From: Clostridia bacterium | GTDB lineage: Bacteria > Bacillota > Clostridia > Christensenellales > Aristaeellaceae | Assembly: GCA_045599485.1 (NCBI GenBank) | Contig: JAZRWA010000001.1 | Coordinates: 1 to 20,545 of the forward strand | Length of the DNA: 20,545 nt | Direction of reading: 5' to 3' | Part shown: positions 1,129 to 16,117 of the stretch, one piece after another | How positions within the stretch are numbered: the stretch's first letter is position 1 | Layout: every line of letters starts with the position of its first letter | Notes under the pieces: generated by a model | Database searches by the model: none | Told to the model about the DNA's origin: nothing | What the model saw: only the letters and a program-made list of their open reading frames with translations | Made by a program: the position numbers and the translations under genes

Positions 1129-1146
1129 TTTTTTCAACAAACAAAA

Positions 1147-1189
1147 GCGAGAGCTCCCGCCGTTTCAGCGGAATGCTTTCGCCTTTTTT
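1147..1189 (+). terminator. Rho-independent terminator between the convergent larC and aminotransferase genes
   Basis: GCGAGAGC (1147-1154) pairs with GCTTTCGC (1175-1182, one G-U pair). An inner CCGC/GCGG stem (1157-1160 / 1168-1171) sits inside, and CTTTTTT follows. Confidence 0.5.
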
Positions 1190-1213
1190 GTATCATTCTA
1201 TTTGGCTGTCAGG

Positions 1214-2380
1214 TCATAGGATGGCACGAAGCACATCACAGCATTCCGTCACATCCGCCTCAGTCAGCACCAGGGGTGTGCGCATCACGATGCGGTTACC
1301 CGCTTTGCCAAGCAGGATACGGTGAGTCTTTGCCCCCCGGCAAATACTGTCCGCCATCCCTTCGGGCAGCTCCAGACTAAAAAACAACCCCTTGCCGTGA
1401 ATTTTGCCCGGGATGTCTTTCTGCTTCAAAATACTCATTAGCTGCCCGGCAAAAATAGCACCCGTATTTCTGACATGCTCCAGGATTTTTTCATCGCGAA
1501 TGATGTCAAATACCAGATTGACGATACTGCACATCAGGTTGTTATCCGCGCTTCCGCCGGACAAATGCCCTGCCTTCACGCAGGAAGCCACTTCTTTCGT
1601 CATCAACAGAGCGCCCAGTCCAAAGCCGTTGGACATACCCTTGCCCGCCAGCAGCATATCGGGAACGATGCCGCACTCCTCATAGGCAAAGAAGGAACCC
1701 GTTTTGCCAAAGCCCGTCTGAATCTCGTCCAGAATCAGCACGATTCCATTCTATTGGGTATATGCCCTCAGCCACTGCCAATATTCACGACTCGGCGTAT
1801 CCATGCCGCTGAGTGCCTGATACGGTTCTATGATCACCGCCGCGATCTTATGTCCATCCCCTGCGGCCGGCTCAAATGCGCGCCCATCGGCGGGATCATC
1901 CCAGAACCGTACATGCTGCAGACCGGAACCGAACCCGTCCTTCCGGTGAGGTGTATCGCTGATGAAGGCGCCTGCAAAGCTGCGTCCATGCAGCGCGTTA
2001 CGGAAACTGACGATTTCCTCCCTACCGGTATACCTGCGGGCAATTTTGATTGCCCAGTCCACCGTTTCGCCGCCGCTACCGGCGATCATGATCTTGTCAA
2101 AATCGTGATGGGTGACCTCCATAAAATTGCGGATCAGTTTTTCCTTGGCTTCACTGAACATTCCCGCATGACAGAGCAGCTGTGTCTGCATCAATTCCGC
2201 TGTACCGGCGGTAAAGCGGGGATGCCGATACCCCAGAATACAGGAAATATCATTCAGGCACAGATACTCCTCCCCTTTTTCATCCACAAACCGCGCGCCG
2301 TGTGCGTCGGTAAACACAGGCTGATCGCCCATTTCGGTATACGTGGCAAGGTGCTGTTGGATATTCTCAAATCGCTCCAT
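1214..2380 (-). CDS. Class-III PLP-dependent aminotransferase (acetylornithine/GABA aminotransferase-like), read through one in-frame TAG
   Basis: ORFs 1751-2440 and 1214-1741 share one frame and are separated only by TAG (1751-1753). The joined protein reads ...WLRAYTQ[TAG]NGIVLILDEIQTGFGKTG..., which is the conserved DE(I/V)QTGFGRTG block. SGGETVDWAIKIAR, ALHGRS and the PLP-lysine region LLAGKGMSNGFGLG are also present. AGGAG lies 9 nt before the ATG at 2378-2380. Stop is TGA at 1214-1216. Confidence 0.8.
1751..1753 (-). other. In-frame TAG codon (putative sense codon) in the aminotransferase
   Basis: cta on the + strand is TAG on the coding strand, with context acc caa TAG aat gga. The same frame continues on both sides. 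Confidence 0.85.
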
Positions 2381-3278
2381 CGGTTTTTTCTCCTTCGTCC
2401 GCCTTCTTCTGCCAAAGCATGCGGTTGTCCTTAAATTCAAAGGTCACCTTGCCCGTTTCATACAACCAGGACAGATAGGACCTGACCGTGCTGCCGATCA
2501 GCACATACTGCTGTGCGGACATCGTCAGTGTATACCGGTCAAACAGCGCCTTCAAAAGCTCTTCAAAGGAAATCGGCGTTTTGCAAAGGCCGGCGATGCA
2601 TTCTTTTACCTGTTCGATGGCTGCAATGTTGATATCGGCCAATGCATCCATGCTGTCCGTCACCGCCGCGTGGGAAGGAACAAAGACGTTTCCATTGACG
2701 GTCTTCAGCATCTCAAGGCTTTCCAACGCTTTTCCGGGATGCCACATATAGCCGATCCCGTATTTGTTCAGCGTCTCTTCGGAAGAAACACTGTCGGCTG
2801 CATAGACCGTACCTTCCGCCGTTTTGAAACCGACCATGTCGAAGCTGTGACCGGGCAGGCGGATGATCTCCCATCCCTCCGGCAGCACGGCTGCAGTCAG
2901 CGGAGCCGCGTCACTCGGCTGTGCCATCAGAAATTTGTTCTGCAGTTCCCTGAACGGAAACCCGCCATAAAGGCCCATCGATTCCAGCTCAGGCTTGACC
3001 GTATACACGCACTCCATCCCCGGTGCAAACACCCGGCAGCCCGTTTTTTCCTGCAAAAAGTGATTGCCGCCGATATGATCGGCATGGGAATGCGTATTGT
3101 AAAGGGCCTTCAGCTGCCATCCGTTCGCGTTCAGGATCTTGAGGACTTTCTTCCCCGCATCCTTGTCATTGCCGCTGTCAATCAAGGCGACTTCGTTTTC
3201 GCCGATCCTCACAAGACCGATCTTTGCCGGGCAATCAATATAATAATCATGCTCCGAAACCTGAATCAGCTCGTACAT
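2367..3278 (-). CDS. MBL-fold metallo-hydrolase
   Basis: It carries the HxHxDH motif (THSHADHIGG) and the later LPGHS. The start is placed at MYELIQ with an upstream purine-rich RBS. TGA stop is at 2367-2369, and the gene overlaps the downstream aminotransferase start by 14 nt. Confidence 0.85.
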   Translation of the reverse strand: MYELIQVSEHDYYIDCPAKIGLVRIGENEVALIDSGNDKDAGKKVLKILNANGWQLKALYNTHSHADHIGGNHFLQEKTGCRVFAPGMECVYTVKPELESMGLYGGFPFRELQNKFLMAQPSDAAPLTAAVLPEGWEIIRLPGHSFDMVGFKTAEGTVYAADSVSSEETLNKYGIGYMWHPGKALESLEMLKTVNGNVFVPSHAAVTDSMDALADINIAAIEQVKECIAGLCKTPISFEELLKALFDRYTLTMSAQQYVLIGSTVRSYLSWLYETGKVTFEFKDNRMLWQKKADEGEKTDGAI

Positions 3279-3436
3279 TGTTTCTTTCCGCCTTTCTTCT
3301 TTTACGCACTTCAACCGTCTGCCGTGCAAAACAAATATTTTTCTCAAGCTTCTATATTATATATGATTTCATCTCATTAAAAAACCTTTATTATTCTATT
3401 ATCCATGCACTCTTTTTTCGCCTCATGGTCATTCGC

Positions 3437-3465
3437 TTGCATATTTTGCAAGAAATATGTAAAAT
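3437..3465 (+). promoter_or_regulatory. Candidate sigma-A promoter for the RmlD-like/GNAT/UvrA-like operon
   Basis: TTGCAT (3437-3442), a 17-nt spacer, then TAAAAT (3460-3465), about 45 nt upstream of the ATG at 3512. The inverted repeat CTTGCA-N5-TGCAAG (3436-3452) overlaps the -35. Confidence 0.35.
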
Positions 3466-3511
3466 AGCGATATAGAATGCCAAATGATTCTTAACGTGAA
3501 GGAGCAGCATT

Positions 3512-4291
3512 ATGAGAATACTGGTCACCGGCCCGGATGGATTTGTTGGAAAACATGTGATGAAAGCGATCCCGGAAGCGATCGCAGTGCCAAAGCTTCG
3601 CGGCGGCAAAGAAGAAGTCGCCGAGCGTGTAAAAGATGCCGATGTGATCATTCACACCGCCGCTATTGCAAGGATGGCGTTGTGTGAGGCGGATCCCGAG
3701 GCGGCTTATAAAGCCAATGTTCTCCTTCCGATGTGGATCGCCGAGGCAGCGCCGAAAGCGAAACTGTTTATGCTATCTTCCGATCAGGTTTACAACAACA
3801 GTAAAGAAAACGGCCCCTTCCGTGAAGAAATGGCCTGCCCCGGCAATGTCTATTCCAGATTAAAGTTGGAGATGTAGCAAAAGGTTCTGGCGATTTCTCC
3901 TTCAGCGGTAATGCTTCGCGCAACATGGATGTTTGATCGGGAATGGGGATATTTGGCCAATATGCAGTCCTCGCAAGGTGATATCGTTGTCCCCGATCAG
4001 TACCGTGCGGTGACGTATATCCGCGAAGTAGCAGAAAACATTGCAAAAATGGTGCAGATGGAAAAAGAAGGGCATGGCGTTCGCGGCGGTGTATACAACT
4101 TTGGCAGTGAGACTGATCTTCCTATGATGTCCTTGATGCAGGAGACCGCAAAACTGATGGGGCTCCGCAAAAAGCTGGTGCCGGGCGAACGAGCGCATGA
4201 CCTGTGGATGGATTGCAGCGCATTGCGTGCACAGGGCATCTCCTTCAGTAACAGTCTGGATGGGATCAAACGTTGTTTACAGGAAGAATGA
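3512..4291 (+). CDS. RmlD-like NAD(P)-dependent sugar-nucleotide reductase/epimerase (extended SDR), read through one in-frame TAG
   Basis: ORFs 3512-3877 and 3911-4291 share one frame and are joined by TAG at 3875-3877. It has an N-terminal Rossmann motif (ILVTGPDGFVG), and the catalytic YxxxK block reads NVYSRLKLEM[TAG]QKVL...MLRATWMF (compare RmlD YGxTKxxGE...RTSWVY). GAAGGAG RBS precedes the start. Stop is TGA at 4289-4291. Confidence 0.8.
3875..3877 (+). other. In-frame TAG codon (putative sense codon) in the RmlD-like gene
   Basis: Context is gag atg TAG caa aag. It falls at the position of the conserved Glu four residues after the catalytic Lys of the YxxxK motif. Confidence 0.85.
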
Positions 4292-4428
4292 TCGAAGAAA
4301 AAATACTTATCCAAACCACACTCCTCTTTGAGATGTTATTTGGATGATATTGCGACAACGAATAAAAACAATCTGTAATTTCGCAGTGTTATGATGGACA
4401 TGGCATCCCCACTTTTAGAGCAAACACC

Positions 4429-4882: not shown

Positions 4883-7399
4883 ATGAATAATGACATTCAA
4901 AACCCGCCGGAGAAAATCAAAATCCGGGGCGGGCGGGTGCACAATCTGAAAAATATTGATGTGGATATCCCGCTGCACAAGATCGTAGGCATCGCCGGCG
5001 TGTCCGGTTCCGGAAAATCCTCTTTAGCGCTTGGTATTCTGTACGCAGAGGGCTCCAGGCGCTATCTGGAATCCCTGTCAACCTACACGCGCAGAAGGAT
5101 GACGCAGGCCGAAAAAGCCCAGGTGGATGAAGTTCTCTATGTTCCCGCCGCACTGGCGCTTCGTCAGCGTCCCGGGGTTCCCGGTATTCGCAGCACATTC
5201 GGTACAGGCACAGAGCTGCTGAACAGCCTTCGTCTGATGTTCTCCCGCCTTGCTTCTCATCGCTGCCCGAATGGACATTATGCACCGCCCTCTTTGAATG
5301 TTGCTGCCGGGCTGGACCTTGTCTGCCCGTTGTGCGGCATACATTTCTTTGCCCCCGGCGCGGAAGAACTGGCCTTTAACAGTCAGGGCGCCTGCAAACG
5401 CTGCGACGGCACCGGCGTGGTACGCACCGTAGATGAAACAACCCTTGTTCCGGATGATTCCCTCACGATCGATGAGGGCGCAGTGGCCCCATGGCAGACG
5501 CTGATGTGGTCGCTGATGAAGGATATTGCCCGCGAAATGGGGGTGCGTACGGATGTCCCCTTCCGTGAGCTGACCGAAGAAGAAAAAGCCATCGTATTCC
5601 ATGGCCCCGCGGTCAAGAAAAAGATCATCTACCAGAACAAAACCAGCGGCGCCGCGGGCGATATGGATTTTACCTATTTCAATGCCACCTATACCGTGGA
5701 AAATGCCCTGTCAAAGGTCAAAGACGAGAACGGTATGAAGCGGGTGGAAAAATTTTTGCGTCAGGATGTGTGTCCTGATTGCGGCGGCACAAGGCTGAGT
5801 GACGCTGCCCGAGCACCGAAGCTTCGGGGAATCTCCTTGGCGGATGCCTGCACCATGACGCTCTCCGATCTGGTGCAGTGGGTGGACGGCATTCCCGCTT
5901 CACTTCCCGAAGAGATGCGCCCGATGGCATTCAGCATATGCGAATCGTTCATGAACGCTTCAAAACGGCTGACCGATCTGGGGTTATCCTATCTGACGCT
6001 GGATCGTGCCGCTTCCACGCTTTCCACCGGTGAAAGACAGCGGATGCAGCTGGCCCGCGCCGTGCGCAACCGTACGACCGGCGTTCTTTATGTTCTGGAT
6101 GAACCGTCCATCGGTCTGCATCCTTCCAACCTGGAAGGACTTACAGGCGTGATGCATGATCTGCTCAATGACGGCAATACCGTTATTCTGGTCGACCACG
6201 ACACCAACGTGCTGAAGGAAGCGGACTGGCTCATTGAAATGGGACCGGATGCCGGTGCGGGCGGCGGAACGATCATCGCCCAAGGGACGCTTGAGCAAGT
6301 GGAAAAAGATCCGAATTCCCGGATCGGCGGTTTTCTGAGCGGTGAAACGACGATCAACATACGAAACCCTGTTTCCGCGGAAAAGATGTTCGAACTGGGG
6401 ACGATCCACCTTTCGACCGCTCCGATTCATACGGTCAAGCCGCTGGAGGCAGACTTTCCCAAAGGCAGATTGATCGTCATCACAGGTGTTTCCGGTTCCG
6501 GCAAAACAACTTTGATACTCGAAAGCCTGATTCCCGCGCTGAAAGCTTCCATCGAAGGCAGCAAACTGCCCGGTCACGTGAAGAGCATCTCCGCTGAGGG
6601 GATTTCTCAGGTCAAGCTGATCGACGCCACCCCTATCGGCATCAATGTGCGTTCCACAGTGGCAACCTATGCCGATGTTCACGATGAACTCCGCAAGGTG
6701 TTCGCGCGCACCCCGGACGCAAGGGAACGCGGCTATAAGGCCGGAGATTTTTCCTATAATACCGGTTCACTGCGCTGTCCCACCTGTGACGGCACCGGCA
6801 GCATCAGTCTGGACGTGCAGTTTCTCCCGGATGTGGATATTCCCTGCCCCAATTGCCGCGGCTCCCGATACAGCAAGGATGCCGGGCTCGTGCGCCGTAT
6901 TCCGAAAAAGGGCGGACAGGCAAACACGCTGCCCGAGCTGATGGATATGAGCGTGACCGAAGCCCTGGCCGCTTGTGCCGATCTGCCGCTGGTATCCCGC
7001 CGTTTGCAGGTGCTGCAGGACCTGGGGCTGGGCTACCTGACGCTGGGTGAAGAAACGCCAAGTCTTTCCGGCGGCGAAGCACAGCGCCTCAAGCTGGCCA
7101 GTGAGATGGGCAAAGGACAGTCTGACTCGGTATTTGTCTTTGATGAACCCACCATCGGTCTGCATCCCCTGGATGTGAAAACGCTGCTGGGTGTATTCAG
7201 CCGACTGATTGAAAACGGTGCAACCGTCATCGTCATCGAGCATGATCTGGATGTCATCAAAAATGCGGACTATATCATCGATATGGGGCCCGGCGGCGGT
7301 GTCCTCGGCGGACAGATCATTGCCCAGGGAACACCTGCGGATGTTTGCAAAAATCCGTAGAGCCTGACCGGAAAATATCTGAAGGATCAAAAAGTATAA
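4883..7399 (+). CDS. UvrA-like ABC ATPase (excinuclease A paralog lacking the UvrB-binding domain), read through TAG near the C-terminus
   Basis: It has two ABC modules: Walker A GVSGSGKSS twice, signatures LSTGERQR and LSGGEAQR, and Walker B LYVLDEPS and VFVFDEPT. CxxC zinc modules are present. GGAG lies 8 nt before the ATG at 4883. The standard-code ORF ends at TAG 7358-7360, but the conserved UvrA tail SLTGKYLK follows in frame to TAA at 7397-7399. Confidence 0.85.
7358..7360 (+). other. In-frame TAG codon (putative sense codon) near the UvrA-like C-terminus
   Basis: Context is aat ccg TAG agc ctg. Twelve further codons (SLTGKYLKDQKV) then lead to TAA. Confidence 0.75.
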
Positions 7400-7506: not shown

Positions 7507-7708
7507 GCATAATCTGTCTCATATTCCTGAATAAATCCCTTCGCTTTCAAGGAAAACGATGGATTGCCCTTACCTTGCAATGCTTCCTTCGGTAACGAAA
7601 TTCAATAACAATCGCCTTTCGAGCGTTCCGTATTGCAGATTCTGTTCAATTACGGTCTTAGGCGTCCTTGCATAAGCATATGCTAATGATTGCAGTTAGA
7701 TTATCTAT

Positions 7709-7736
7709 TTGACTTATCGCAATTCTGAAATATAAT
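7709..7736 (+). promoter_or_regulatory. Candidate sigma-A promoter of the ABC transporter operon
   Basis: TTGACT (7709-7714), a 16-nt spacer, then TATAAT (7731-7736). GAGGAGG RBS precedes the ATG at 7785. Confidence 0.5.
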
Positions 7737-7784
7737 GAAAACAAAAGTGGAACGATCCACATCATTTTTGAGGAGGAACCTGAT

Positions 7785-9032
7785 ATGAAAAGAATCATGT
7801 GTCTTTTGCTGGCGATCCTGATGATGGCAACACTCGCGGTCGCTTCTGCGGATGAAGAAGTGAAAATCACCTTCTACACCGAGAACGCGACGAATGGTGC
7901 CAACGAAGCTCGTCTTGCCGCCTTTAACGCCCTGTACCCCAACATCAAGGTTGAGCTGGTGGAAATGCCCGCCGGTTCTACGGATCGTATGCAGATGCTG
8001 AGCACTGTCCTGCAGGCGAAGGATGCCAGCCTGGATGTGTTCATTGTCGACTGCACCTGGCCTGAGACTTTTGTGGCTGCCGAATGGCTTGCCAATCTCG
8101 ATGGCATGCTCACCGAAGAAGAGCTCTCCGTGTTCTCCACCGGCGCCCTCGAGGGCTGCATGATCGATGGCAGCCTGTACTGCCTGCCGCTGTTCGTCAA
8201 CACCGGTGCGATGCTGTATCGTGCCGATCTGCTTGAAAAGTATGGCTTTGAACCCGCGAAGACCTGGGATGAGCTGATTGCGCAGTCCAAGGTCGTCATG
8301 GCGGGCGAAGAGAACGTGTATGGTTATGCCGCTGCCTGGATGCAGGCGGAAGCTCTGACCTGCTGCGCGATGGAGCATATCTGGAACGCCGGCGGTGAGG
8401 TTATGGAAAACGGCAACCCCTCCTTCAACAATGATCAGGTGATTGCCGGCATCTCCGAGATGAAGAAGATGATTGATTCCGGCGTCTGCATCGACGGTAT
8501 CCTCGGCATGGCTGCGAAGGATGTCCGTGCGGCTTTCTTTGCGGGCCAGGTCCTGTATGCCCGTGACTGGTCCGTTCAGATCGGCAATGCAAACAATCCT
8601 GCGACCTCTTCCGTGGCCGGCAATGTCAAGCTTGCGCCTCTGCCGACCTCCGGTGAGGAATATCCCAGCTACAACTGCAACGGCGGTTGGAACATCGGCA
8701 TCTCCTCCTTCTCCGCTCACAAGGAAGAAGCGCTTGCCCTGGTCAAGTTCTGGACCGGCAGCGAATCCCAGCTCTACAATGCTGTAATGAACAGCAAGAT
8801 GCCCTCCCTGCCCGAGCTGTATGCCAATGCCGAACTCGTCGAAGCTCAGCCCGATATGGCCACCATGCTTGACTTCGCCGCCAACTGCAAGAACAGGCCG
8901 AATTCCGCTTACTATGAAGAGGTCTCCGCCGCCATGCAGCAGGCTGTGATGGATGTTCTCATGGGCACCAAGGATGTTGTGACGGCCGTCAACGACATGC
9001 AGGCTGTCGAGGAAGACATCTACACCTGGTAA
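7785..9032 (+). CDS. ABC transporter extracellular solute-binding protein (family 1, carbohydrate/CUT1 type)
   Basis: It has an N-terminal signal peptide (MKRIMCLLLAILMMATLAVASA), a size of about 415 aa and composition typical of sugar-binding proteins. Two MalF/MalG-type permeases follow. Stop is TAA. Confidence 0.9.
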   Translation: MKRIMCLLLAILMMATLAVASADEEVKITFYTENATNGANEARLAAFNALYPNIKVELVEMPAGSTDRMQMLSTVLQAKDASLDVFIVDCTWPETFVAAEWLANLDGMLTEEELSVFSTGALEGCMIDGSLYCLPLFVNTGAMLYRADLLEKYGFEPAKTWDELIAQSKVVMAGEENVYGYAAAWMQAEALTCCAMEHIWNAGGEVMENGNPSFNNDQVIAGISEMKKMIDSGVCIDGILGMAAKDVRAAFFAGQVLYARDWSVQIGNANNPATSSVAGNVKLAPLPTSGEEYPSYNCNGGWNIGISSFSAHKEEALALVKFWTGSESQLYNAVMNSKMPSLPELYANAELVEAQPDMATMLDFAANCKNRPNSAYYEEVSAAMQQAVMDVLMGTKDVVTAVNDMQAVEEDIYTW

Positions 9033-9046
9033 TCGCAGACAATCAT

Positions 9047-9096
9047 GCGGCACCGGATATGACAGAGCCAACCGTCGTATTCGGTGCCGCTTTTTC
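9047..9096 (+). terminator. Intercistronic stem-loop / partial terminator between the binding-protein and permease genes
   Basis: GCGGCACCG (9047-9055) pairs with CGGTGCCGC (9082-9090). The stem extends via ATATGAC/GTCGTAT (9057-9063 / 9075-9081, one G-U pair) around an 11-nt loop, and TTTTTCT follows. Confidence 0.55.
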
Positions 9097-9108
9097 TAAG
9101 GAGTCAAA

Positions 9109-9996
9109 ATGAGAAACAAACAGAGAATCATGCTGGGATATCTCTTTCTGATACCTGCATTGATCTTGTTCCTTGTATTTGTAGCCTACCCTGTTTATAA
9201 CACGATCCGCACAAGTTTTATGGCGCTTCGCATCCAGACGCTCAGTAAGGGCGGTCGATTCATCGGCTGGGACAACTATGTAAAACTGTCCAAGGATGCA
9301 ACGATGTGGCGCAGCCTGCAGTTCACGGTCCTGTTTACGGTCATCGCCGTCGCTTTGGAAACAGTCATCGGTATGGCCTGTGCGCTGATCATGAACCGCA
9401 GATTTCCGGGCAAAAATCTAATCTGTGCGATCATTCTTATTCCCTGGTGCATCCCGACCGTTGTTTCCGCCCTGATGTGGTCGTATATGTTTGCCGAAAC
9501 CTATGGCGCGATCAATCAGTTCCTTCGGATCATCGGCCTCACAGAAGCGCCTATCCACTGGATCACGGAATCCTCCAGCGCCTTTGTGGCGATCGTGATC
9601 TCGGATGTCTGGAAAACGACGCCGTACATGTCCCTCCTGCTGCTTTCCGGTCTCAAGACCGTCCCCGATGAACTGTACGAGGCCGCTTCCATCGACGGAG
9701 CCAACCCGGTGCAGAGCTTTTTCTCGATCACCTTGCCGTCCATCAAATCCGTTCTGGTGGTCGCCGTCATGTTCCGTACCATTGCCAGTTTCCGCATCTA
9801 TGATCTGATCAAGGTCCTCACCAACGGAGGCCCCGGCCAAGCCACAACAAGTCTGACCATGTATACGATGCAGCAATATTTCTCCTTCGGCAATTACGGA
9901 TACGGTGCCGCGCTGGCCGTTGTGACATTTATCGTCTCGCTGATCATCGCATTCTTCTTCTACGACGGTATGAAGTCGAAACTGGAGGTACAGTAA
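9109..9996 (+). CDS. Carbohydrate ABC transporter permease (MalF/UgpA-like)
   Basis: It has multiple hydrophobic helices and the EAA loop EAASIDGANPVQSFFSITLP. Stop is TAA. Confidence 0.9.
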   Translation: MRNKQRIMLGYLFLIPALILFLVFVAYPVYNTIRTSFMALRIQTLSKGGRFIGWDNYVKLSKDATMWRSLQFTVLFTVIAVALETVIGMACALIMNRRFPGKNLICAIILIPWCIPTVVSALMWSYMFAETYGAINQFLRIIGLTEAPIHWITESSSAFVAIVISDVWKTTPYMSLLLLSGLKTVPDELYEAASIDGANPVQSFFSITLPSIKSVLVVAVMFRTIASFRIYDLIKVLTNGGPGQATTSLTMYTMQQYFSFGNYGYGAALAVVTFIVSLIIAFFFYDGMKSKLEVQ

Positions 9997-9997
9997 A

Positions 9998-10837
9998 ATG
10001 AAAAAAACAACTGCAAGACGCATCACGTCCGCAGTCATTGTACTGTTCTTCTTCCTGTTTGCACTGATCATCCTGTTTCCGTTTTTGTGGCTCGTCCTCG
10101 GATCATTCAAATCCGTCCGTGAGCTGTTTGCCGTGCCGCTCAAATTCTGGCCGGAGCAGTGGAATTATATCAATTATATCGAAGCCTGGAACAATCAGCC
10201 TTTCGGTCGCTATATCCTCAACAGCCTGATCGTCTCGGGTTTGTCGACAGCCGTCGTGGTATTTGTCTCCTGTTTGGGCAGTTATTCCCTGGCAAGGACC
10301 CCCATCCACGGGAAAAAGCTGGTGTTGATCCTCCTGCTGACCGTATCGCTGCTTCCGCCGGTCACGCTGATCAATCCGATCTATCAGATGTTCAGCAACC
10401 TTCGTCTGCTCAACACCACCGTAGGTTTGGGGCTCGTACTGGCAGCAACCGAACTGCCGACCGCGATCTGGCTTCTGACCAGCTTTTTTCAGGCAGTGCC
10501 CTTTGAGTTGGAGGAAAGCGCCATGCTGGATGGTGCAACTGTGCTGAAAACCTTCGTTTCGATCGTGATTCCGCTGGTGACCCCGGGCATGTTCACGGTC
10601 TGCATCATGACGTTTATTACATCTTGGAACAATTACATTTTTGCGGCAGTTCTCAACCAGATGCCCGTCGCAAGAACGGTGCCTGTCGCATTGACACTGT
10701 TTGAAACAGAAAGCTATACACCATGGCATCTGATCTCCGCCGCTGCGGTCTTTGTTTCACTGCCGCTGGTCCTTATTGTCATGATCATGCAGAAACGTAT
10801 CGTTTCCGGTCTGATCACAGGCGGTGTAAAAGGATAA
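9998..10837 (+). CDS. Carbohydrate ABC transporter permease (MalG/UgpE-like)
   Basis: It starts 2 nt after the preceding stop. EAA loop is ESAMLDGATVLKTFVSIVIP. Stop is TAA. Confidence 0.9.
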   Translation: MKKTTARRITSAVIVLFFFLFALIILFPFLWLVLGSFKSVRELFAVPLKFWPEQWNYINYIEAWNNQPFGRYILNSLIVSGLSTAVVVFVSCLGSYSLARTPIHGKKLVLILLLTVSLLPPVTLINPIYQMFSNLRLLNTTVGLGLVLAATELPTAIWLLTSFFQAVPFELEESAMLDGATVLKTFVSIVIPLVTPGMFTVCIMTFITSWNNYIFAAVLNQMPVARTVPVALTLFETESYTPWHLISAAAVFVSLPLVLIVMIMQKRIVSGLITGGVKG

Positions 10838-10838
10838 A

Positions 10839-11756
10839 TCAATCCGCAGGTGAACGGAAAAACTGCTGTGCATATTCTATGAAGCAGCGCATCGCATTCG
10901 TGATGTATTTGCGATGATGATGTGCGATCGCTACCTTCATTGTCTGGTCCTCATGGCCCTCCAGAATACAGTAGACAGGCTTACGGAGCTTTGTCGGTTC
11001 GATCCATGTGGATACTTCGCCAATAAAGGCGCAGCCGATGTTGGCCGCTACCAGCAGATGGACCAAACCGGGATTGGACGTTTCCAGTGCTGTGTACATC
11101 GGGACTTCGTATTTCCGAAAGACTTCCTGTGTATATTCGCGAAGATATCCCGACGTACCGATGATAAAGGGCTCATTGCGTATAGCATCAAACGTGATGA
11201 TCGGATACGGAGCGGAATCGGCCGTCCGGACATGGGCAAGCGCGTTTGATTCCGGTGGGAGTGCCAGCAAAATCGGCTCGTGATGAATGATGTAATAGGT
11301 CAGTTTGGTGTCATTGGAGTTATAGCTGAAACCTATATCCCCTTCTCCGTTCAGCAGCAAAGTTTCGACTTCATAGGAATCGACCTCCCGGATATGAACC
11401 TGGATATCCGGATATCTGCTCATAAACCCCGGCAGCAGATAAGACAACGTAATGAAGGACTTTGCTTTTGTTACGACCAGGGTCAGCTCGTTTTTTTCAT
11501 TGGCGATCTTCATCTCACTGATGGAATTATGATACTAAAGGAGCATGTTCCGGGCGCGTGACAGAAATGCTTTGCCCGCCTCGGTGAGCGCAATGCGGTT
11601 ACCGTTTCGGATAAAGAGCTGAACACCCATCTCCCGCTCAAGATGTGACAACTGCTGACTGAGCGCAGATTGCGTGATGAACAGCCGGTCTGCCGCTTTG
11701 GTGATACTTCCACAGTCACAGATGCGGATAAAATACTCAATCTGTGTAAGATTCAT
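10839..11756 (-). CDS. LysR family transcriptional regulator, read through one in-frame TAG
   Basis: ORFs 11535-11762 (HTH: LTQIEYFIRICDCGSITKAADRLFITQSALSQQLSHLEREMG) and 10839-11513 (substrate-binding domain) share one frame and are joined by TAG at 11535-11537. AGGAG lies 8 nt before the ATG at 11754-11756. Stop is TGA at 10839-10841. Confidence 0.85.
11535..11537 (-). other. In-frame TAG codon (putative sense codon) in the LysR regulator linker
   Basis: Coding-strand context is ctc ctt TAG tat cat. It lies between the HTH domain and the effector-binding domain. Confidence 0.85.
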
Positions 11757-11778
11757 GAACAAGTCTCCTTGCAGTCAA

Positions 11779-11788
11779 TTCATATGAA
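11779..11788. promoter_or_regulatory. Perfect 10-bp palindrome in the LysR / FAD-oxidoreductase divergent intergenic region (candidate LysR box core)
   Basis: TTCATATGAA lies 23 nt upstream of the LysR start codon, inside the 86-nt divergent region. Confidence 0.3.
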
Positions 11789-11842
11789 GTGTATCAAACC
11801 TCAACGCAAAATGCAACCGAACCAAAGGAGTGAATACAAAAA

Positions 11843-13150
11843 ATGAAAACAATTAAAAGAGCAGAAAGGAATATTCCTGTCATTGCCGAAACACAGGTAC
11901 TGGTGGTCGGCAGCGGTCCCGCGGGCATTTCCGCGGCTGTCGCCGCGGCGAGAACGGGTGCCAAGACAATGCTTGCCGAAAAATACGGCTGCTTCGGCGG
12001 CGCACTTTCCGTCGGTCAGGTCGAATCGTATAACTGGTATTTCAACGACAAGACATATACTTCCTGCGGAATCAGCTCCGAGATCGAACAGCGAATGCTC
12101 GCAATGGGCGGCACGCAACACGATGACCGGGGCATCGGACATTTTCTGAATGCCGAGATCTATAAGATCATGCTGGATCGCTGGGTAGAAGAAGAAGGCA
12201 TCACGCCCCTTCTGCATGCTTTGGCTGTCGATGTGGTGAAAGACGGAGACAACGTCCGTGGTGTCATCTTCGAAAGCAAATCCGGCTGCGGCGCGGTGCT
12301 TGCAGACTGCGTGATCGACGCCACCGGTGACGGTGACGTAGCAGCCCTTGCCGGAGCGCAGTATAATATCGGCGGAACCGATGCCAGGGATGTGCTTCCG
12401 GTGACGATGGTGTTTGGTGTCAGCGGCGTGGATGTCAAAACCTTCAGAGAATATGTTGCGGCACACAAAGAAATGATCACACCGGAAACACACGGTCTTA
12501 AAAAAGTATTCCTTGATGCACAGAAAGCCGGAAAATGGCCTTACAGCCGTGAAGGCGGCGCATGGAAGACCCTCACCCCCTCCGGCGATTTCACAAGCCT
12601 CAACATCACGCGCGAATTCGGCATTGACGGTACCGACGTCTGGGATCTGACCCGTGCGGAGATCAGCGGACGCAAGCAGGCACTTCAGGCAATCGAATGC
12701 ATGCGTGAATTCGGCGCGGAAATGGGACTTGCAAATTGTACGCTTCGCTCCTTCGGCTATCAGATCGGCATCCGTGAGACCCGCCGCATCATCTGCGAAT
12801 ATAACATGACTCGCGCGGACATCATGGGCAAGGCAGAATTCGAGGATAACATCGGTGTCTATACGCGTTTCATTGACGGCGAAGTGATCTCACACGATGA
12901 CAGCCGCTTCCAGCTGCCGTATCGCATGATTCTGCCCGTAAAAATCGACAATCTGCTGGTTGCTGGACGCTGCGCCGGGTGTGAAAAAGATGCTGTGCAG
13001 ACGATCCGCATGATGGTCTGCTGTGCAGCTACCGGCCAGGCCGCCGGAACAGCAGCGGCACTCAGCGCCATGCAGGGAATCGCGCCGCGTGATCTGTCGG
13101 TCGCCTGTCTGCAGGAGAAATTGCGGGCCGACCGCATGATTCTGGAGTAA
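11843..13150 (+). CDS. FAD-dependent oxidoreductase (FAD_oxidored / GidA-like fold family)
   Basis: It has an N-terminal dinucleotide-binding motif (VLVVGSGPAGISAAVAAARTGAKTMLAEK) and a C-terminal AGRCAG motif. Stop is TAA. Confidence 0.85.
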   Translation: MKTIKRAERNIPVIAETQVLVVGSGPAGISAAVAAARTGAKTMLAEKYGCFGGALSVGQVESYNWYFNDKTYTSCGISSEIEQRMLAMGGTQHDDRGIGHFLNAEIYKIMLDRWVEEEGITPLLHALAVDVVKDGDNVRGVIFESKSGCGAVLADCVIDATGDGDVAALAGAQYNIGGTDARDVLPVTMVFGVSGVDVKTFREYVAAHKEMITPETHGLKKVFLDAQKAGKWPYSREGGAWKTLTPSGDFTSLNITREFGIDGTDVWDLTRAEISGRKQALQAIECMREFGAEMGLANCTLRSFGYQIGIRETRRIICEYNMTRADIMGKAEFEDNIGVYTRFIDGEVISHDDSRFQLPYRMILPVKIDNLLVAGRCAGCEKDAVQTIRMMVCCAATGQAAGTAAALSAMQGIAPRDLSVACLQEKLRADRMILE

Positions 13151-13192
13151 CAGAATGCAATTGCGGAATTCTGAAGAGAGAAGGTCATCACC

Positions 13193-14137
13193 ATGAAAAA
13201 AATTGTGGTTCTGGACGGATATACAGAAAACCCAGGCGATCTGAGCTGGGATCAGCTTGCAGAGCTGGGGAACTTGACGGTCTATGATCATACCCCCGCC
13301 AGCGAGATTGACGCACGCATCGGGGATGCAGAAATCGTCTATACCAACAAGACACCGCTCAACGCACAGACGCTGGAAAACCATCCAAAGATCGAATTCA
13401 TCGGTGTGCTGGCAACCGGTTATAATGTCGTGGATGTTGTGGCTGCCAAGGCTCACGGCATTGCGGTTTGCAATGTGCCGACCTACGGCACGACAGCGGT
13501 CGCTCAATATGTCTTTGCACTGCTGCTGGAAATCTGTCACCATGTAGCACACCACAGCAACGCAGTAAAGGAAGGCCGTTGGTCCAACTGCCGCGATTTC
13601 TGCTTCTGGGACTACCCACTCATTGAGTTGAAAGGCAAGACGATGGGCATTGTGGGTTACGGACGCATCGGCCGCGCCACGGCAGACATCGCCAGAGCCT
13701 TTGGTATGCGGGTGCTGGCCTATGATGTCCATGGCGAAGGTGAAGAGCTGACAACGCTGGAGAACCTTCTGGCCAACAGCGATGTCGTCTCCCTGCATTG
13801 TCCGTTGTTCAAGGAGAACACGGGCATGATCAACCGTGAGACGATCGCCGGCATGAAGGACGGCGCCATCCTGATCAACACCTCCCGTGGTCCGCTCATC
13901 AACGAGATGGACCTGCGCGAAGCACTGCTTTCCGGAAAGATCATGGCCGCGGCAGTGGATGTCCTTTCCGTTGAACCGGCCCGCATGGACAATCCGCTCA
14001 TGGACCTGCCGAATTGCATCATCACGCCGCATATCGCCTGGGCGAACAAGGAAAGCCGCCAGCGCCTCATGGATGTGGCGGTCGGCAACCTGCGCGAGTA
14101 TCTGGCAGGAAATACGATCAACAACGTAGCAAAGTAA
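13193..14137 (+). CDS. D-isomer-specific 2-hydroxyacid dehydrogenase (glycerate/hydroxypyruvate reductase-like)
   Basis: It carries the NAD-binding motif GIVGYGRIG, plus LINTSRGPLI and ITPHIAW, which is the catalytic His region of this family. Stop is TAA. Confidence 0.9.
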   Translation: MKKIVVLDGYTENPGDLSWDQLAELGNLTVYDHTPASEIDARIGDAEIVYTNKTPLNAQTLENHPKIEFIGVLATGYNVVDVVAAKAHGIAVCNVPTYGTTAVAQYVFALLLEICHHVAHHSNAVKEGRWSNCRDFCFWDYPLIELKGKTMGIVGYGRIGRATADIARAFGMRVLAYDVHGEGEELTTLENLLANSDVVSLHCPLFKENTGMINRETIAGMKDGAILINTSRGPLINEMDLREALLSGKIMAAAVDVLSVEPARMDNPLMDLPNCIITPHIAWANKESRQRLMDVAVGNLREYLAGNTINNVAK

Positions 14138-14416: not shown

Positions 14417-16117
14417 TTATTCTGTCATCCAAATCGAATCCAGATATTCCATGCGCATAGCCAAGAATGTGCGGATATATTCGATATTTGCAATAAAATC
14501 TTCTCCCGTTTGTCCCGGAAAATCAGGATTATTAAAAGTTGGCCATCTCAGAAAGTTCATGTTTGCCGCTGCGGTCAAGAAGTCGCGATATGCATCCAGT
14601 GAACGCAGACGGACATTCTATTCCGACAATCGATAGGACAGCAAAACCTCCATCAAGGGACGGTAGGTGGTCACATACGCCTCCTTAACGGCTTCTACAA
14701 ATTCCGGATGTGTATACAACTGTGCAAACCAGCATGTGTTGCGGGAATCTTTCTATGCAGCAAACAGGCCATAGGGATCGTTCAGCGTGCCATATAATGG
14801 GTCCATTTCTGCTGAACTGTATAATCCATATGCGTTATCATAATCCCAAACCGGTCCGAAAAACAACTTCTCACTGATATAATCATTATACTTGTATAAA
14901 TAATAGCTTGTGCGGTTCGCATCCAGGTTTTTACTGATTTCTTCAATTAGATACTTCCCGACAAGTGAATCCTTGTCGGCAATTTCAAAAAAGTGTTTAC
15001 CGGATTCCGGATCAATGCCGTCATCCGCCATAATTGCATTTTCAAAACGCTGCACCAACGAACTGATATAGCGCACCTGCGCCCTTGAAGCATATTCCGG
15101 CGTCTTTAACAGCACAGCCTGACCTCCCTTGGTAACGAAGCCGCTGCCGCTGTCAGTATATCGATAACTGAGTTCAAGCGTCATCAAATAGCCGCCAGTA
15201 ATATCTTCCGGATTAACGGGGATGTCGTAGTATTTAATTGTATCGGCTCGGTACTTCAAGGTACCCAGATGATCGTAGCTGCTGATTCTCTTTTTATTGA
15301 CTTTTTGGGTCTCCTATTGAAGATCGATAATGTTTACCCGTTTCTTCCCCTGCTAAACTTTTTCGGTCAGCAAATACGTTCCATAATAAATACGATTCGC
15401 ATAAACATCAACAAAGCGATAGTCCGTAGTATACTTCATATTCGCCGCCTCAGCCATATCATAGGTGATCGCATTGCGAATCATGGAATTATCACGGTAA
15501 GATGGAATAAGCAGCCATACTTTAGCAGAATCCATATCCAAAATCGGAGATTTTTCAAGCAATTTCACCTGGAACGGCGTTTTTTCCCATTTGAACGATG
15601 AATTTCCTCTTCCACGGATATACTCAAAACTGCCAGAATGGAAAACCATGCCGTCTTCATCCATCACGACCCACTATCCCGGCTCTTTATTTGTTTTCCT
15701 CACTTGCAAATAATCAAGATTGCCGCTCTTCGTACGAAAAAACACAGCACCGATATTTTGGCTTTGCAAAATATTTAATGTATATGTCTCATCTTTACAC
15801 TGAACCAGTAATTTTTCTCCGGGTACGAATGCATCCGTAACCGTATCATTTTTTATTATTTTGCCATTAATCGTAACCGACTATGCCCCTCCTGTAAGAT
15901 GCATGTGCAGTTTTGATGTGTCAAACCCGGAAGGAAGAAACAAATAATACTCACCTTGATAGCGATACCACCGAACTGCCGCGGTCGGAATGGGATCTTT
16001 TGTACTCCATGTTGGAATTGCGTCCCAAACATAGATAAAATTCAATTCTGCAGCATAACAATTCCACGAGATTAGCAAAAGTAAAACCGTTACGAAAAAA
16101 ACAATATATCGTTTCAT
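14417..16117 (-). CDS. CotH kinase family protein (secreted), read through six in-frame TAG codons
   Basis: One frame is open for 567 codons if TAG is read as sense. The standard-code fragments 15881-16117, 15353-15667 and 14753-15259 are all in this frame. It has a signal peptide (MKRYIVFFVTVLLLLISWNCYAA), the CotH hallmark YYLYKY...GPVWDYDNAYG, and AGGAG 6 nt before the ATG at 16115-16117. The true stop is TAA at 14417-14419. Confidence 0.8.
14618..14620 (-). other. In-frame TAG codon 6 in CotH
   Basis: Coding context is tcg gaa TAG aat gtc (SYRLSE[TAG]NVRLRSLDAY). The frame stays open for 66 more codons to TAA. Confidence 0.75.
14753..14755 (-). other. In-frame TAG codon 5 in CotH
   Basis: Coding context is gct gca TAG aaa gat (YGLFAA[TAG]KDSRNTCWF). 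Confidence 0.8.
15314..15316 (-). other. In-frame TAG codon 4 in CotH
   Basis: Coding context is ctt caa TAG gag acc (NIIDLQ[TAG]ETQKVN). Confidence 0.8.
15353..15355 (-). other. In-frame TAG codon 3 in CotH
   Basis: Coding context is aaa gtt TAG cag ggg (YLLTEKV[TAG]QGKKRV). Confidence 0.8.
15674..15676 (-). other. In-frame TAG codon 2 in CotH
   Basis: Coding context is ccg gga TAG tgg gtc (NKEPG[TAG]WVVMDEDG). Confidence 0.8.
15881..15883 (-). other. In-frame TAG codon 1 in CotH
   Basis: Coding context is ggg gca TAG tcg gtt (LTGGA[TAG]SVTINGK). Confidence 0.8.

What the first reader, a model, noticed from the sequence alone, without database searches (positions are those of the whole stretch)
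3512..4291. Conserved-position evidence on which amino acid TAG encodes: Glu (or Gln) favoured
Four TAG positions can be compared with remembered homologue sequences.
- **RmlD-like protein:** TAG sits at NVYSRLKLEM[TAG]QKV. That position aligns with the strongly conserved Glu of the extended-SDR/RmlD block Y-G-x-T-K-x-x-G-E-x-x-(V/L).
- **UvrA paralog:** TAG precedes S-L-T-G-K-Y-L-K. Bacillus-type UvrA has E-S-Y-T-G-R-Y-L-K there.
- **Aminotransferase:** TAG aligns with Q in E. coli ArgD (CDQHQALLVFDEVQ) and with E in GabT (CDEHGIMLIADEVQ).
- **LysR linker:** TAG falls where E or Q is common (ARxIL-x-E/Q).

GAG and CAG are both one substitution from TAG. A tRNA-Glu(CUC) or tRNA-Gln(CUG) could become a CUA suppressor with a single anticodon change.
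Basis: partly seen in the sequence, partly recalled or inferred. Interest (0 to 1): 0.75.

Follow-up and report, generated by a model that had tools for sequence, protein, structure and literature searches.

The report
Bacterial TAG codon read as glutamate
In this uncultured Clostridia-like bacterium and at least two relatives, the stop codon TAG sits inside intact conserved genes exactly where close relatives have glutamate codons, so TAG almost certainly encodes glutamate, a genetic-code change I could not find reported for any bacterium.

Summary
The RmlD-like gene (3512-4291) is one 259-codon reading frame interrupted only by TAG at 3875-3877. The window holds 10 in-frame TAGs in 5 genes. 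It has no in-frame TAA or TGA, and none of its 17 genes ends in TAG.

The amino acid is glutamate, not glutamine.
- **RmlD column:** E in 138 of 141 homologues, and E in 4 of 4 orthologues that are 89-91% identical.
- **Aminotransferase column:** E in both 94%-identical orthologues.
- **LysR:** TAG faces GAG in 6 of 6 loci (88% DNA identity).
- **All near-identical comparisons:** across three recoded genomes (window, L036, L001), 8 of 11 sites show only Glu. The other three are hypervariable. None shows Gln. Where DNA is available the partner codon is GAG (3 sites) or GAA (1).
- **Profile test on 9 window columns:** P(Glu) = 0.99. Columns of true Gln or Lys codons never reach the same Glu-over-Gln score (0 of 5000 draws each).

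L001 carries TAG in dnaA, parB, scpA and scpB, so the change is genome-wide and shared by a clade.

The mechanism is inferred only: a tRNA(CUA) charged with Glu, plus loss of release factor 1. I could not retrieve the tRNA or the rest of the genome.

The parts
3512..4291 (+). RmlD-like extended short-chain dehydrogenase gene. It has 259 sense codons including one TAG, and ends in TGA at 4289-4291.
   Evidence: Pfam RmlD_sub_bind, E = 6.6e-26, residues 1-221. The best solved-structure match is 9gpi, a putative dTDP-4-dehydrorhamnose reductase, aligned over residues 3-255. Orthologues 89-91% identical are uninterrupted 259-aa proteins.
3875..3877 (+). In-frame TAG, codon 122 of the RmlD-like gene. 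It sits four residues after the Lys of the YxxxK motif and is read as Glu.
   Evidence: The column is E in 138 of 141 homologues and in 5 of 5 displayed solved-structure alignments (two distinct RmlD proteins plus MAT2B). It is E in P0652-P0655. The codon is GAG in L036.
1214..2380 (-). Class-III aminotransferase gene, 388 codons, ending in TGA.
   Evidence: Pfam Aminotran_3, E = 1.5e-68, residues 22-388.
1751..1753 (-). In-frame TAG, codon 210 of the aminotransferase, eight residues before the DEIQ motif. Read as Glu.
   Evidence: The column is E 62, D 38, Q 3 of 120 homologues. Among the 21 full-length orthologues of 55-78% identity it is E in 17. It is E in the 94%-identical P0658 and P0659. 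The codon is GAG in L036, L002 and L003.
4883..7399 (+). UvrA paralog, 838 codons, ending in TAA at 7397-7399.
   Evidence: Pfam UvrA_DNA-bind and ABC_tran. There are 118 orthologues at 83-91% identity.
7358..7360 (+). In-frame TAG 12 codons before the true stop of the UvrA paralog. Read-through restores the conserved C-terminal S-x-T-G-x-Y-L motif.
   Evidence: The motif after the column is present in 117 of the 118 other proteins listed and in solved UvrA structures. The column itself is variable (N 35, S 31, R 16, D 13, E 8). The public gene call P0501 is cut to 825 aa at this TAG.
10839..11756 (-). LysR-type regulator gene, 305 codons, ending in TGA.
   Evidence: Pfam HTH_1 and LysR_substrate lie on either side of the TAG. 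Orthologues in L023-L028 are uninterrupted, 305 aa long and 89.5% identical.
11535..11537 (-). In-frame TAG, codon 74 of LysR. Read as Glu.
   Evidence: The orthologous codon is GAG in 6 of 6 loci.
14417..16117 (-). CotH-family gene, 566 codons, ending in TAA. It has six in-frame TAGs, at 15881-15883, 15674-15676, 15353-15355, 15314-15316, 14753-14755 and 14618-14620.
   Evidence: Pfam CotH, E = 2.1e-34, residues 167-559. 120 full-length homologues have no interruption. The columns are polar and variable, with E present in each. One column is Q 61 / E 45.
7663..14137 (.). Six-gene cassette: sugar-binding protein, two permeases, LysR, FAD oxidoreductase and 2-hydroxyacid dehydrogenase. It is shared at 88% DNA identity with a mobile-element region of standard-code gut bacteria.
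   Evidence: blastn against L023-L028. The proteins are 89.5-97% identical. In those loci the cassette is flanked by recombinase, HTH_17 and TnpV genes.

Best explanation
The organism that carries this contig is an uncultured Clostridia-class bacterium. It and at least two related organisms use a genetic code in which UAG is a sense codon for glutamate, and only UAA and UGA terminate translation.

**Shown:**
- TAG lies inside intact, conserved genes.
- TAG never ends a gene in the loci examined.
- TAG stands where very close relatives have GAG or GAA.

TAG is a rare synonym of the Glu codons: 10 of 377 Glu-type codons in the window, about 1.6 per 1000 codons. It appears to arise from GAG by a G-to-T change at the first position.

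**Inferred, not shown:**
- A tRNA with anticodon CUA is charged with glutamate. The simplest origin is a duplicated tRNA-Glu (CUC to CUA is one base change), accepted by the GluRS of a lineage that lacks GlnRS; such enzymes already tolerate variation at anticodon position 36.
- Release factor 1 has been lost or no longer acts on UAG.
For: **1. Anatomy.** The window has 10 in-frame TAGs in 5 genes, no in-frame TAA or TGA, and 0 of 17 genes ending in TAG. Pfam domains span the TAGs.

**2. The same pattern in relatives.**
- L001 is a 42-kb contig from sample SRR27361835. It has in-frame TAGs in dnaA (2), parB (2), scpA (2), scpB and about seven more positions. None of about 19 genes ends in TAG.
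- L036 comes from the same sample and is 85% identical in DNA to window 2-4292. It has three in-frame TAGs of its own.

**3. Near-identical orthologues** (85-97% identical, 11 TAG sites):

| Site | Residue or codon in orthologues |
|---|---|
| Window RmlD | E in 4 of 4; GAG |
| Window aminotransferase | E in 2 of 2; GAG |
| Window LysR | GAG in 6 of 6 |
| L036 aminotransferase | window has GAA |
| L001 CotH | E |
| L001 DnaA site 1 | E |
| L001 ScpA site 1 | E |
| L001 M50 protease | E in 4 of 4 |

That is 8 of 11 sites with Glu only, and no Gln at any site. With Glu at about 7% of residues, the binomial probability is about 1e-7 (my calculation).

**4. Deep alignments.**
- RmlD column: E in 138 of 141.
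- Aminotransferase column: E 62, D 38, Q 3.
- DnaA site 2 is the Glu of the SN(I/V)R-E-LEG motif.
- ScpA site 1 is the Glu of the F-E-GPLDLL motif.

**5. Profile-HMM likelihood over 9 window columns.**
- P(E) = 0.988, K 0.008, Q 0.0003.
- The log-likelihood difference lnL(E) - lnL(Q) is 8.2 for TAG.
- It was reached by 0 of 5000 random sets of 9 Gln-codon columns and 0 of 5000 Lys sets.
- It is typical for true Glu codons, whose mean is 10.8.
Against: - No tRNA(CUA), GluRS or release-factor gene could be examined. None lies in the window, L001 or L036, and the rest of the genome was out of reach. The mechanism therefore rests on inference.
- Three of the 11 near-identical sites do not show Glu only. 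The UvrA paralog column has K, K, E, D and N in the closest orthologues. The L036 metallo-beta-lactamase-fold (MBL) hydrolase gene has TAG where the window has CCG, Pro. An L001 hypothetical protein has R and G in its orthologues. All three sit in locally variable sequence.
- One CotH column is Q in the 50 closest homologues (36-57% identical) and E only in more distant ones.
- Profile inference alone separates E from Q poorly. In the same test CAA was miscalled as E.
- A pattern search of 185,579 representative genomes for a canonical tRNA-Glu anticodon arm carrying CUA found only terminator hairpins.
Confidence: 0.88

Rival explanations
1. TAG encodes glutamine, as in TAG-recoded phages and many ciliates. 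It would be read by a tRNA-Gln(CUA) of the supE type, charged with Glu and then amidated by GatCAB.
For: - One CotH column (window 15353-15355) is Q in all 50 closest homologues.
- E and Q are hard to separate with profiles alone.
- CAG to TAG is a single transition.
Against: - None of the 11 near-identical orthologue sites has Q, and 8 have E only.
- The partner codons are GAG (3 sites) and GAA (1 site), never CAG or CAA.
- The RmlD column has 0 Q in 141 sequences.
- No set of 9 true Gln-codon columns reaches the TAG score (0 of 5000).
Confidence: 0.04
2. TAG encodes pyrrolysine or another non-standard residue throughout the genome, as recently reported for some archaea.
For: - Genome-wide TAG-to-Pyl is documented in archaea (bioRxiv 10.1101/2024.09.30.615893, listed; cited in 10.64898/2026.05.24.727570).
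- Several TAG columns in CotH and the UvrA paralog are variable and often hold K.
Against: - TAG replaces nearly invariant Glu residues: RmlD 138 of 141, the DnaA R-E-LEG motif, and the ScpA F-E-GP motif.
- TAG alternates with GAG and GAA in near-identical orthologues.
- In the profile test K is about 120 times less likely than E.
- No pyl or methylamine methyltransferase gene appears in about 54 kb of recoded sequence.
Confidence: 0.03
3. There is no dedicated tRNA. Release factor 1 is lost or weak, and UAG is read through by near-cognate tRNAs, which gives a mixture of residues or ambiguous stop/sense decoding.
For: - No tRNA(CUA) was found.
- TAG is rare, at 1.6 per 1000 codons.
- From my own knowledge, not checked here: E. 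coli strains without RF1 read UAG with near-cognate tRNAs.
Against: - TAG is tolerated at essential, invariant Glu positions in housekeeping genes such as dnaA and scpA.
- TAG alternates specifically with Glu codons, which implies faithful Glu insertion.
- Near-cognate read-through in E. coli mainly inserts Gln, Tyr, Lys or Trp (my own knowledge).
- The tRNA searches were blind guesses. They could not target this genome, so their failure carries little weight.
Confidence: 0.04
4. The interrupted genes are pseudogenes, or the TAGs are sequencing or assembly errors, and TAG is an ordinary stop.
For: Public gene calls treat these genes as fragments: P0242, P0501, P0651 and P0657.
Against: - Only TAG interrupts genes. 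TAA, TGA and frameshifts never do.
- The sequence after each TAG stays conserved.
- No gene ends in TAG in the window or L001, and in L036 the only TAG-ending gene calls are in-frame interruptions.
- The same TAGs recur in independent assemblies. Four separate records end the DnaA fragment at the same codon, and a fifth ends at the second TAG.
- Essential genes are affected (dnaA, parB, scpA, scpB).
Confidence: 0.01

Closest known systems
Peritrich ciliate and Blastocrithidia nuclear codes (NCBI translation tables 30 and 31; table numbers from my own knowledge): UAA and UAG read as Glu
   Same: A stop codon of the UAR family is reassigned to glutamate. In Blastocrithidia it is read by tRNA-Glu with a matching anticodon. 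PMC12153298, listed, states UAR = Glu for Blastocrithidia nonstop.
   Different: Those are eukaryotic nuclear codes that reassign UAA and UAG together and involve eRF1. Here only UAG is reassigned, UAA remains the commonest stop (9 of 17 genes), and the organism is a bacterium with the RF1/RF2 system.
TAG-to-Gln recoding in gut phages (crAss-like, Lak and others)
   Same: UAG alone becomes a sense codon in a prokaryotic translation setting, and a suppressor tRNA(CUA) is involved. Examples of such tRNAs turned up in L029-L031.
   Different: Those are phage genomes, the amino acid is Gln, and recoding is often confined to late genes. The window is chromosomal: it carries no phage genes and gave no meaningful phage match. 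The amino acid is Glu, and housekeeping genes are affected.
Genome-wide UAG-to-pyrrolysine code in some archaea (Kivenson et al.; bioRxiv 10.1101/2024.09.30.615893)
   Same: All TAG codons are sense and TAG is not used as a stop. Coding density under table 11 falls only slightly, so the change is easy to miss.
   Different: That code is archaeal and the residue is Pyl, supplied by pylTSBCD. Here TAG corresponds to a standard amino acid and alternates with GAG and GAA.
Bacterial UGA reassignments (table 4, UGA = Trp; table 25, UGA = Gly)
   Same: A bacterial stop codon is captured by a tRNA with a mutated anticodon and the cognate release factor (RF2) is lost. This is the expected parallel for mechanism.
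   Different: The codon, release factor and amino acid all differ. The literature I could search states that all known bacterial stop reassignments involve UGA (PMC8629427; PMC13462651).

Membership tests
Genome-wide stop-codon reassignment (alternative genetic code) | The codon occurs in frame in many unrelated, conserved genes, with conservation continuing after it | tested here: met
   There are 10 TAGs in 5 window genes, about 16 in L001 including dnaA, parB, scpA and scpB, and 3 in L036. Pfam domains and homologue alignments span them.
Genome-wide stop-codon reassignment (alternative genetic code) | The codon is no longer used to terminate genes | tested here: met
   0 of 17 window genes and 0 of about 19 L001 genes end in TAG. 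In L036 all three TAG-ending gene calls are in-frame interruptions. The nearest standard-code relatives do use TAG as a stop, for example the CobO gene in L032.
Genome-wide stop-codon reassignment (alternative genetic code) | One consistent amino acid at aligned positions | tested here: met
   Glu only at 8 of 11 near-identical sites. RmlD column 138 of 141 E. Profile posterior 0.988 for E, with controls.
Genome-wide stop-codon reassignment (alternative genetic code) | A tRNA whose anticodon reads the codon and whose identity elements match the new amino acid | not testable with these tools
   No tRNA lies in the window, L001 or L036 (L036 by its gene table). Two blind pattern scans found only terminators or unrelated phage-like tRNAs. 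The rest of the genome could not be fetched.
Genome-wide stop-codon reassignment (alternative genetic code) | Loss or alteration of the release factor that reads the codon (RF1, prfA) | not testable with these tools
   This needs the complete genome. Only one 20.5-kb contig of this assembly was available.
Pyrrolysine decoding of UAG | pylT and pylSBCD genes, and TAG in methylamine methyltransferase genes | not testable with these tools
   None was seen in about 54 kb of recoded sequence, but absence from the genome cannot be shown.
Pyrrolysine decoding of UAG | TAG positions do not correspond to one standard amino acid | tested here: not met
   TAG corresponds to Glu and alternates with GAG and GAA.
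Phage TAG-to-Gln recoding | A phage genome, with Gln at aligned positions | tested here: not met
   The gene content is chromosomal. The only phage-collection match is the UvrA gene, at 73% identity to an unannotated record. No near-identical site has Q.
RmlD / dTDP-4-dehydrorhamnose reductase family (the gene at 3512-4291) | Pfam RmlD_sub_bind above its curated cut-off, an N-terminal glycine-rich NAD(P) motif, a YxxxK catalytic pair, and Glu four residues after the Lys | tested here: met
   The score is 91.5 bits against a cut-off of 27. The motifs VTGPDGFVG and Y-SRL-K are read directly from the sequence. The Glu position is the TAG itself. The protein is shorter than typical RmlD (259 against about 290 aa), and its substrate was not tested.

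The most novel reading that the evidence does not exclude
A clade of uncultured Clostridia-class bacteria uses a previously undescribed bacterial genetic code in which UAG is a glutamate codon and only UAA and UGA are stops. It would be carried by a tRNA-Glu-derived CUA tRNA and accompanied by loss of RF1. This would be the first bacterial reassignment of UAG, and the first stop-to-Glu reassignment outside eukaryotes.
Probability: 0.8. Interest if true: 0.9.

Novelty: new variant of a known kind. Interest (0 to 1): 0.85.

Why it matters
- **A new code for bacteria.** As far as the searchable literature shows, every known bacterial stop-codon reassignment involves UGA (PMC8629427; PMC13462651). 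A 2024 preprint counts only three codes in Bacteria. A bacterial UAG = Glu code would add a new translation table.
- **A natural RF1-independent cell.** It would provide a free-living organism with a glutamate-inserting amber suppressor.
- **Annotation errors.** Current pipelines miss the change. Public databases hold these genes as fragments, for example P0242, P0501 and P0651. Essential genes such as dnaA look broken in such genomes, which distorts completeness and pseudogene estimates.
- **Gene flow across a code boundary.** A six-gene cassette 88% identical to one in standard-code gut bacteria sits in this recoded genome. It has acquired one GAG-to-TAG change, so transfer into the recoded lineage still occurs.
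- **Phage-host conflict.** TAG = Gln phages and a TAG = Glu host would decode each other's genes differently.

Tried and rejected
**1. Finding the source genome.**
- Exact look-ups of window proteins in the gene-position index failed.
- The cluster look-up showed only that the window is a complete 20,546-bp NCBI contig, with no name attached.

**2. Hunting the tRNA(CUA).**
- A scan of the representative-genome collection for the canonical tRNA-Glu anticodon arm carrying CUA (ACCGCCYTCTAAMGGCGGT) gave 19 hits. All were terminator hairpins or coding sequence, and none was a tRNA.
- A scan of metagenome contigs for a tRNA-Glu-type D-arm, CUA anticodon and T-arm gave three real tRNA(CUA) genes. 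They lie on low-GC (27-34%) contigs; two carry phage-like tRNA arrays, and one tRNA has a Gln-like U1. They are unrelated to this roughly 50% GC lineage.
- ARAGORN and Rfam found no RNA gene in the window or L001.

**3. Phage or plasmid origin.** Rejected. There is no plasmid match, and the only phage-collection match is the UvrA gene at 73% identity.

**5. Profile inference alone.** It gives E, but the control showed it miscalls CAA as E and ATG as L with this few genes. I therefore rest the E-versus-Q decision on near-identical orthologues and on the subsampling control.

**6. The UvrA column as evidence for Glu.** Rejected as uninformative, because the column is hypervariable.

**7. Are the nearest CotH relatives also recoded?** L032 and L034 have intact genes, and L032 has a genuine TAG stop, so they use the standard code.

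**8. Literature.** Five full-text searches and three papers read found no report of a bacterial UAG reassignment. Subscription-only papers are not covered.
Full report
**What is in the window**

The 20,545-base window is a complete contig of an NCBI metagenome-assembled genome; its proteins are on record from a 20,546-bp NCBI contig. It carries 17 ordinary bacterial genes:
- a LarC-like nickel-insertion protein;
- a class-III aminotransferase;
- a metallo-beta-lactamase-fold hydrolase;
- an RmlD-like reductase;
- a GNAT acetyltransferase;
- a UvrA paralog;
- a sugar ABC transporter;
- a LysR regulator;
- an FAD oxidoreductase and a 2-hydroxyacid dehydrogenase;
- a CotH protein and several cell-surface proteins.

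Named homologues are annotated as coming from Clostridia or Clostridiales bacteria. There is no plasmid match. The only phage-collection match is the UvrA gene, at 73% identity to an unannotated record.

ORFs 3512-3877 and 3911-4291 are in one frame and are separated only by TAG at 3875-3877. Read through, they give a 259-residue protein. Pfam RmlD_sub_bind matches residues 1-221, and the solved putative dTDP-4-dehydrorhamnose reductase 9gpi aligns over residues 3-255.

The window has 10 in-frame TAGs: one each in the aminotransferase, the RmlD-like gene, the UvrA paralog and LysR, and six in CotH. It has no in-frame TAA or TGA in 6310 codons. None of the 17 genes ends in TAG; 9 end in TAA and 8 in TGA. 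TAG is therefore a sense codon here.

**The change is genome-wide and shared by relatives**

- **L001.** A truncated CotH homologue led to this locus, part of a 42-kb Logan contig from run SRR27361835.
  - Its proteins are 52-65% identical to the window's CotH, leucine-rich-repeat and peptidoglycan-binding proteins.
  - It has in-frame TAGs in dnaA (2), parB (2), scpA (2), scpB, an M50 protease, a GGDEF-EAL protein (4) and others.
  - No gene there ends in TAG.
- **L036.** A second contig from the same run is 85% identical in DNA to window 2-4292. It has three in-frame TAGs at positions different from the window's.
- **Standard-code neighbours.** The nearest CotH relatives on long contigs (L032, L034), and the organisms that carry the closest aminotransferase (L002) and the shared cassette (L023), use TAG as a stop or have uninterrupted genes.

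**Which amino acid: near-identical orthologues**

The strongest evidence comes from orthologues so similar that the aligned residue should almost always be the same amino acid.

| TAG site | Orthologue identity | Residue or codon facing the TAG |
|---|---|---|
| Window RmlD-like, 3875-3877 | 89-91% | E in 4 of 4; GAG in L036 |
| Window aminotransferase | 94% | E in 2 of 2; GAG in L036 (also GAG in L002 and L003) |
| Window LysR | 88% DNA | GAG in 6 of 6 loci |
| L036 aminotransferase (its own TAG) | 93% | GAA in the window |
| L001 CotH | same 90%-identity cluster | E |
| L001 DnaA site 1 | same 90%-identity cluster | E |
| L001 ScpA site 1 | same 90%-identity cluster | E |
| L001 M50 protease | same 90%-identity cluster | E in 4 of 4 |
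| Window UvrA paralog | 88-91% (five closest) | K, K, E, D, N |
| L036 beta-lactamase-fold gene | 87% | CCG (Pro) in the window |
| L001 hypothetical protein | 92-95% | R and G |

Eight of eleven sites show Glu only. None shows Gln. The last three sites lie in locally variable sequence. With Glu at about 7% of residues, 8 of 11 has a binomial probability near 1e-7 (my calculation).

**Which amino acid: deep alignments**

- The RmlD column lies four residues after the Lys of YxxxK. It is E in 138 of 141 homologues from an exhaustive search, with no Q.
- The aminotransferase column is E 62, D 38, Q 3 of 120.
- DnaA site 2 is the Glu of the SN(I/V)R-E-LEG motif in the Bacillus and Aquifex structures.
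- ScpA site 1 is the Glu of F-E-GPLDLL in three bacterial structures.
- ParB site 1 faces E, R, K and E in four structures.
- The six CotH columns are polar and variable. One is Q in the 50 closest homologues and E in 45 more distant ones.

**A Codetta-style test and its control**

I built profile HMMs from the homologues of four window genes and summed log emission probabilities over the 9 aligned TAG columns. The result is P(E) = 0.988, K 0.008, Q 0.0003.

The same procedure recovers 59 of 61 sense codons but miscalls CAA as E and ATG as L. Profiles alone therefore separate E from Q poorly. I then drew random sets of 9 columns from true codons and compared lnL(E) - lnL(Q) with the TAG value of 8.2:

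| Codon class | Draws reaching 8.2 |
|---|---|
| Gln | 0 of 5000 (maximum 5.1) |
| Lys | 0 of 5000 |
| Asp | 7% |
| Glu | 90% (mean 10.8) |

TAG columns behave like Glu-codon columns.

- **RmlD:** correct and strong.
- **Aminotransferase:** the column is E/D-rich and Q is rare. Close orthologues show E.
- **LysR:** the direct orthologue has GAG.
- **UvrA:** Geobacillus UvrA does have E, but the column is hypervariable. It supports read-through only, because the S-x-TG-x-YL tail after the TAG is conserved.

**Mechanism (inferred)**

By analogy with every documented stop-codon capture, I expect a tRNA with anticodon CUA that is charged with glutamate, and loss of RF1.

Several facts fit a tRNA-Glu origin (CUC to CUA is one change). 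Wherever DNA is available, TAG pairs with GAG (three sites) or GAA (one). TAG is rare, at 2.7% of Glu-type codons, and it is absent as a stop.

From general knowledge, not tested here: many Firmicutes lack GlnRS and use a non-discriminating GluRS that already tolerates C or G at anticodon position 36. This could ease acceptance of A36.

None of this could be checked. No tRNA or Rfam family occurs in the window or L001. Two blind pattern scans failed: one returned only terminator hairpins, the other unrelated tRNA(CUA) genes on low-GC contigs, two with phage-like tRNA arrays.

**Rivals**

- **Gln:** excluded by the near-identical sites, the partner codons and the control.
- **Pyl or another non-standard residue:** does not fit TAG at invariant Glu positions or its alternation with GAG and GAA.
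- **Near-cognate read-through without a dedicated tRNA:** hard to reconcile with TAG at essential Glu positions in dnaA and scpA.
- **Pseudogenes or sequencing errors:** excluded. Only TAG interrupts genes, and the same TAGs recur in independent assemblies.

**Novelty**

- The eLife screen of 250,000 genomes states that all known bacterial changes reassign UGA (PMC8629427).
- A 2024 preprint counts three codes in Bacteria.
- 2026 papers still list only UGA reassignments in bacteria and UAG-to-Pyl in archaea.
- I found no report of UAG = Glu in a bacterium. Subscription-only literature was not searchable.

The kind of event, stop-codon reassignment, is known. The codon, amino acid and domain combination appears new.

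Noticed in passing
window 7663-14137: A six-gene cassette (sugar-binding protein, two permeases, LysR, FAD oxidoreductase, 2-hydroxyacid dehydrogenase) is 88% identical in DNA to a region indexed in 259 blocks of the public assembly collection, including a 3.3-Mb genome. There it is flanked by recombinase, HTH_17 and TnpV genes, so it looks like a mobile element that moved between a standard-code host and this recoded lineage. All six genes end in TAA or TGA in both the window and L023.
   Followed up: partly
L036 1-12369 (Logan SRR27361835 contig 94429) and L001 (same run, contig 47192): One sequencing run holds two different recoded organisms. One is a close relative of the window's organism (85% DNA identity). 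The other is more distant (52-65% protein identity). The run would be a good source for the missing tRNA and for proteomics.
   Followed up: partly
window 14417-16117: CotH carries 6 of the window's 10 TAGs. It lies in the lowest-GC part of the contig (42-45% against 47-57% elsewhere). TAG density is very uneven among the genes.
   Followed up: no
window 3512-4291, 4883-7399, 1214-2380, 14417-16117: Public protein collections hold these genes as fragments cut at TAG: P0651 and P0242 for the RmlD-like gene, P0501 for the UvrA paralog, P0657 for the aminotransferase, and P0656 for CotH. In L001, parB and scpB were even called on the wrong strand.
   Followed up: yes
window 4883-7399: The UvrA paralog is 83-91% identical to proteins annotated from Lachnospiraceae, Ruminococcaceae, Roseburia and Butyrivibrio genomes. 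That is far more conserved than its neighbours, which suggests horizontal spread. It has the UvrA DNA-binding domain, and at 838 aa it is shorter than canonical UvrA (about 940-970 aa in solved structures).
   Followed up: no
window 1-1128: The LarC-like nickel-insertion gene runs off the contig start. It contains a histidine-rich stretch (HDHPHSHAHDHHHHDHDHHHDDH).
   Followed up: no
L029 2239-2311; L030 4426-4499 and 5249-5322; L031 2236-2309: Four tRNA(CUA) genes lie on low-GC metagenome contigs. Two of the contigs carry phage-like tRNA arrays. ARAGORN labels them tRNA-Pyl only because of the anticodon. Three have a tRNA-Glu/Gln-type D-arm (GGTTAAGAC), and one starts with U1 like tRNA-Gln.
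   Followed up: partly
L032 and L034 (nearest standard-code CotH relatives): TAG is a rare stop in these relatives: 1 of 16 and 0 of 19 genes. This could reflect a decline of TAG stops before capture. The sample is too small to tell.
   Followed up: partly
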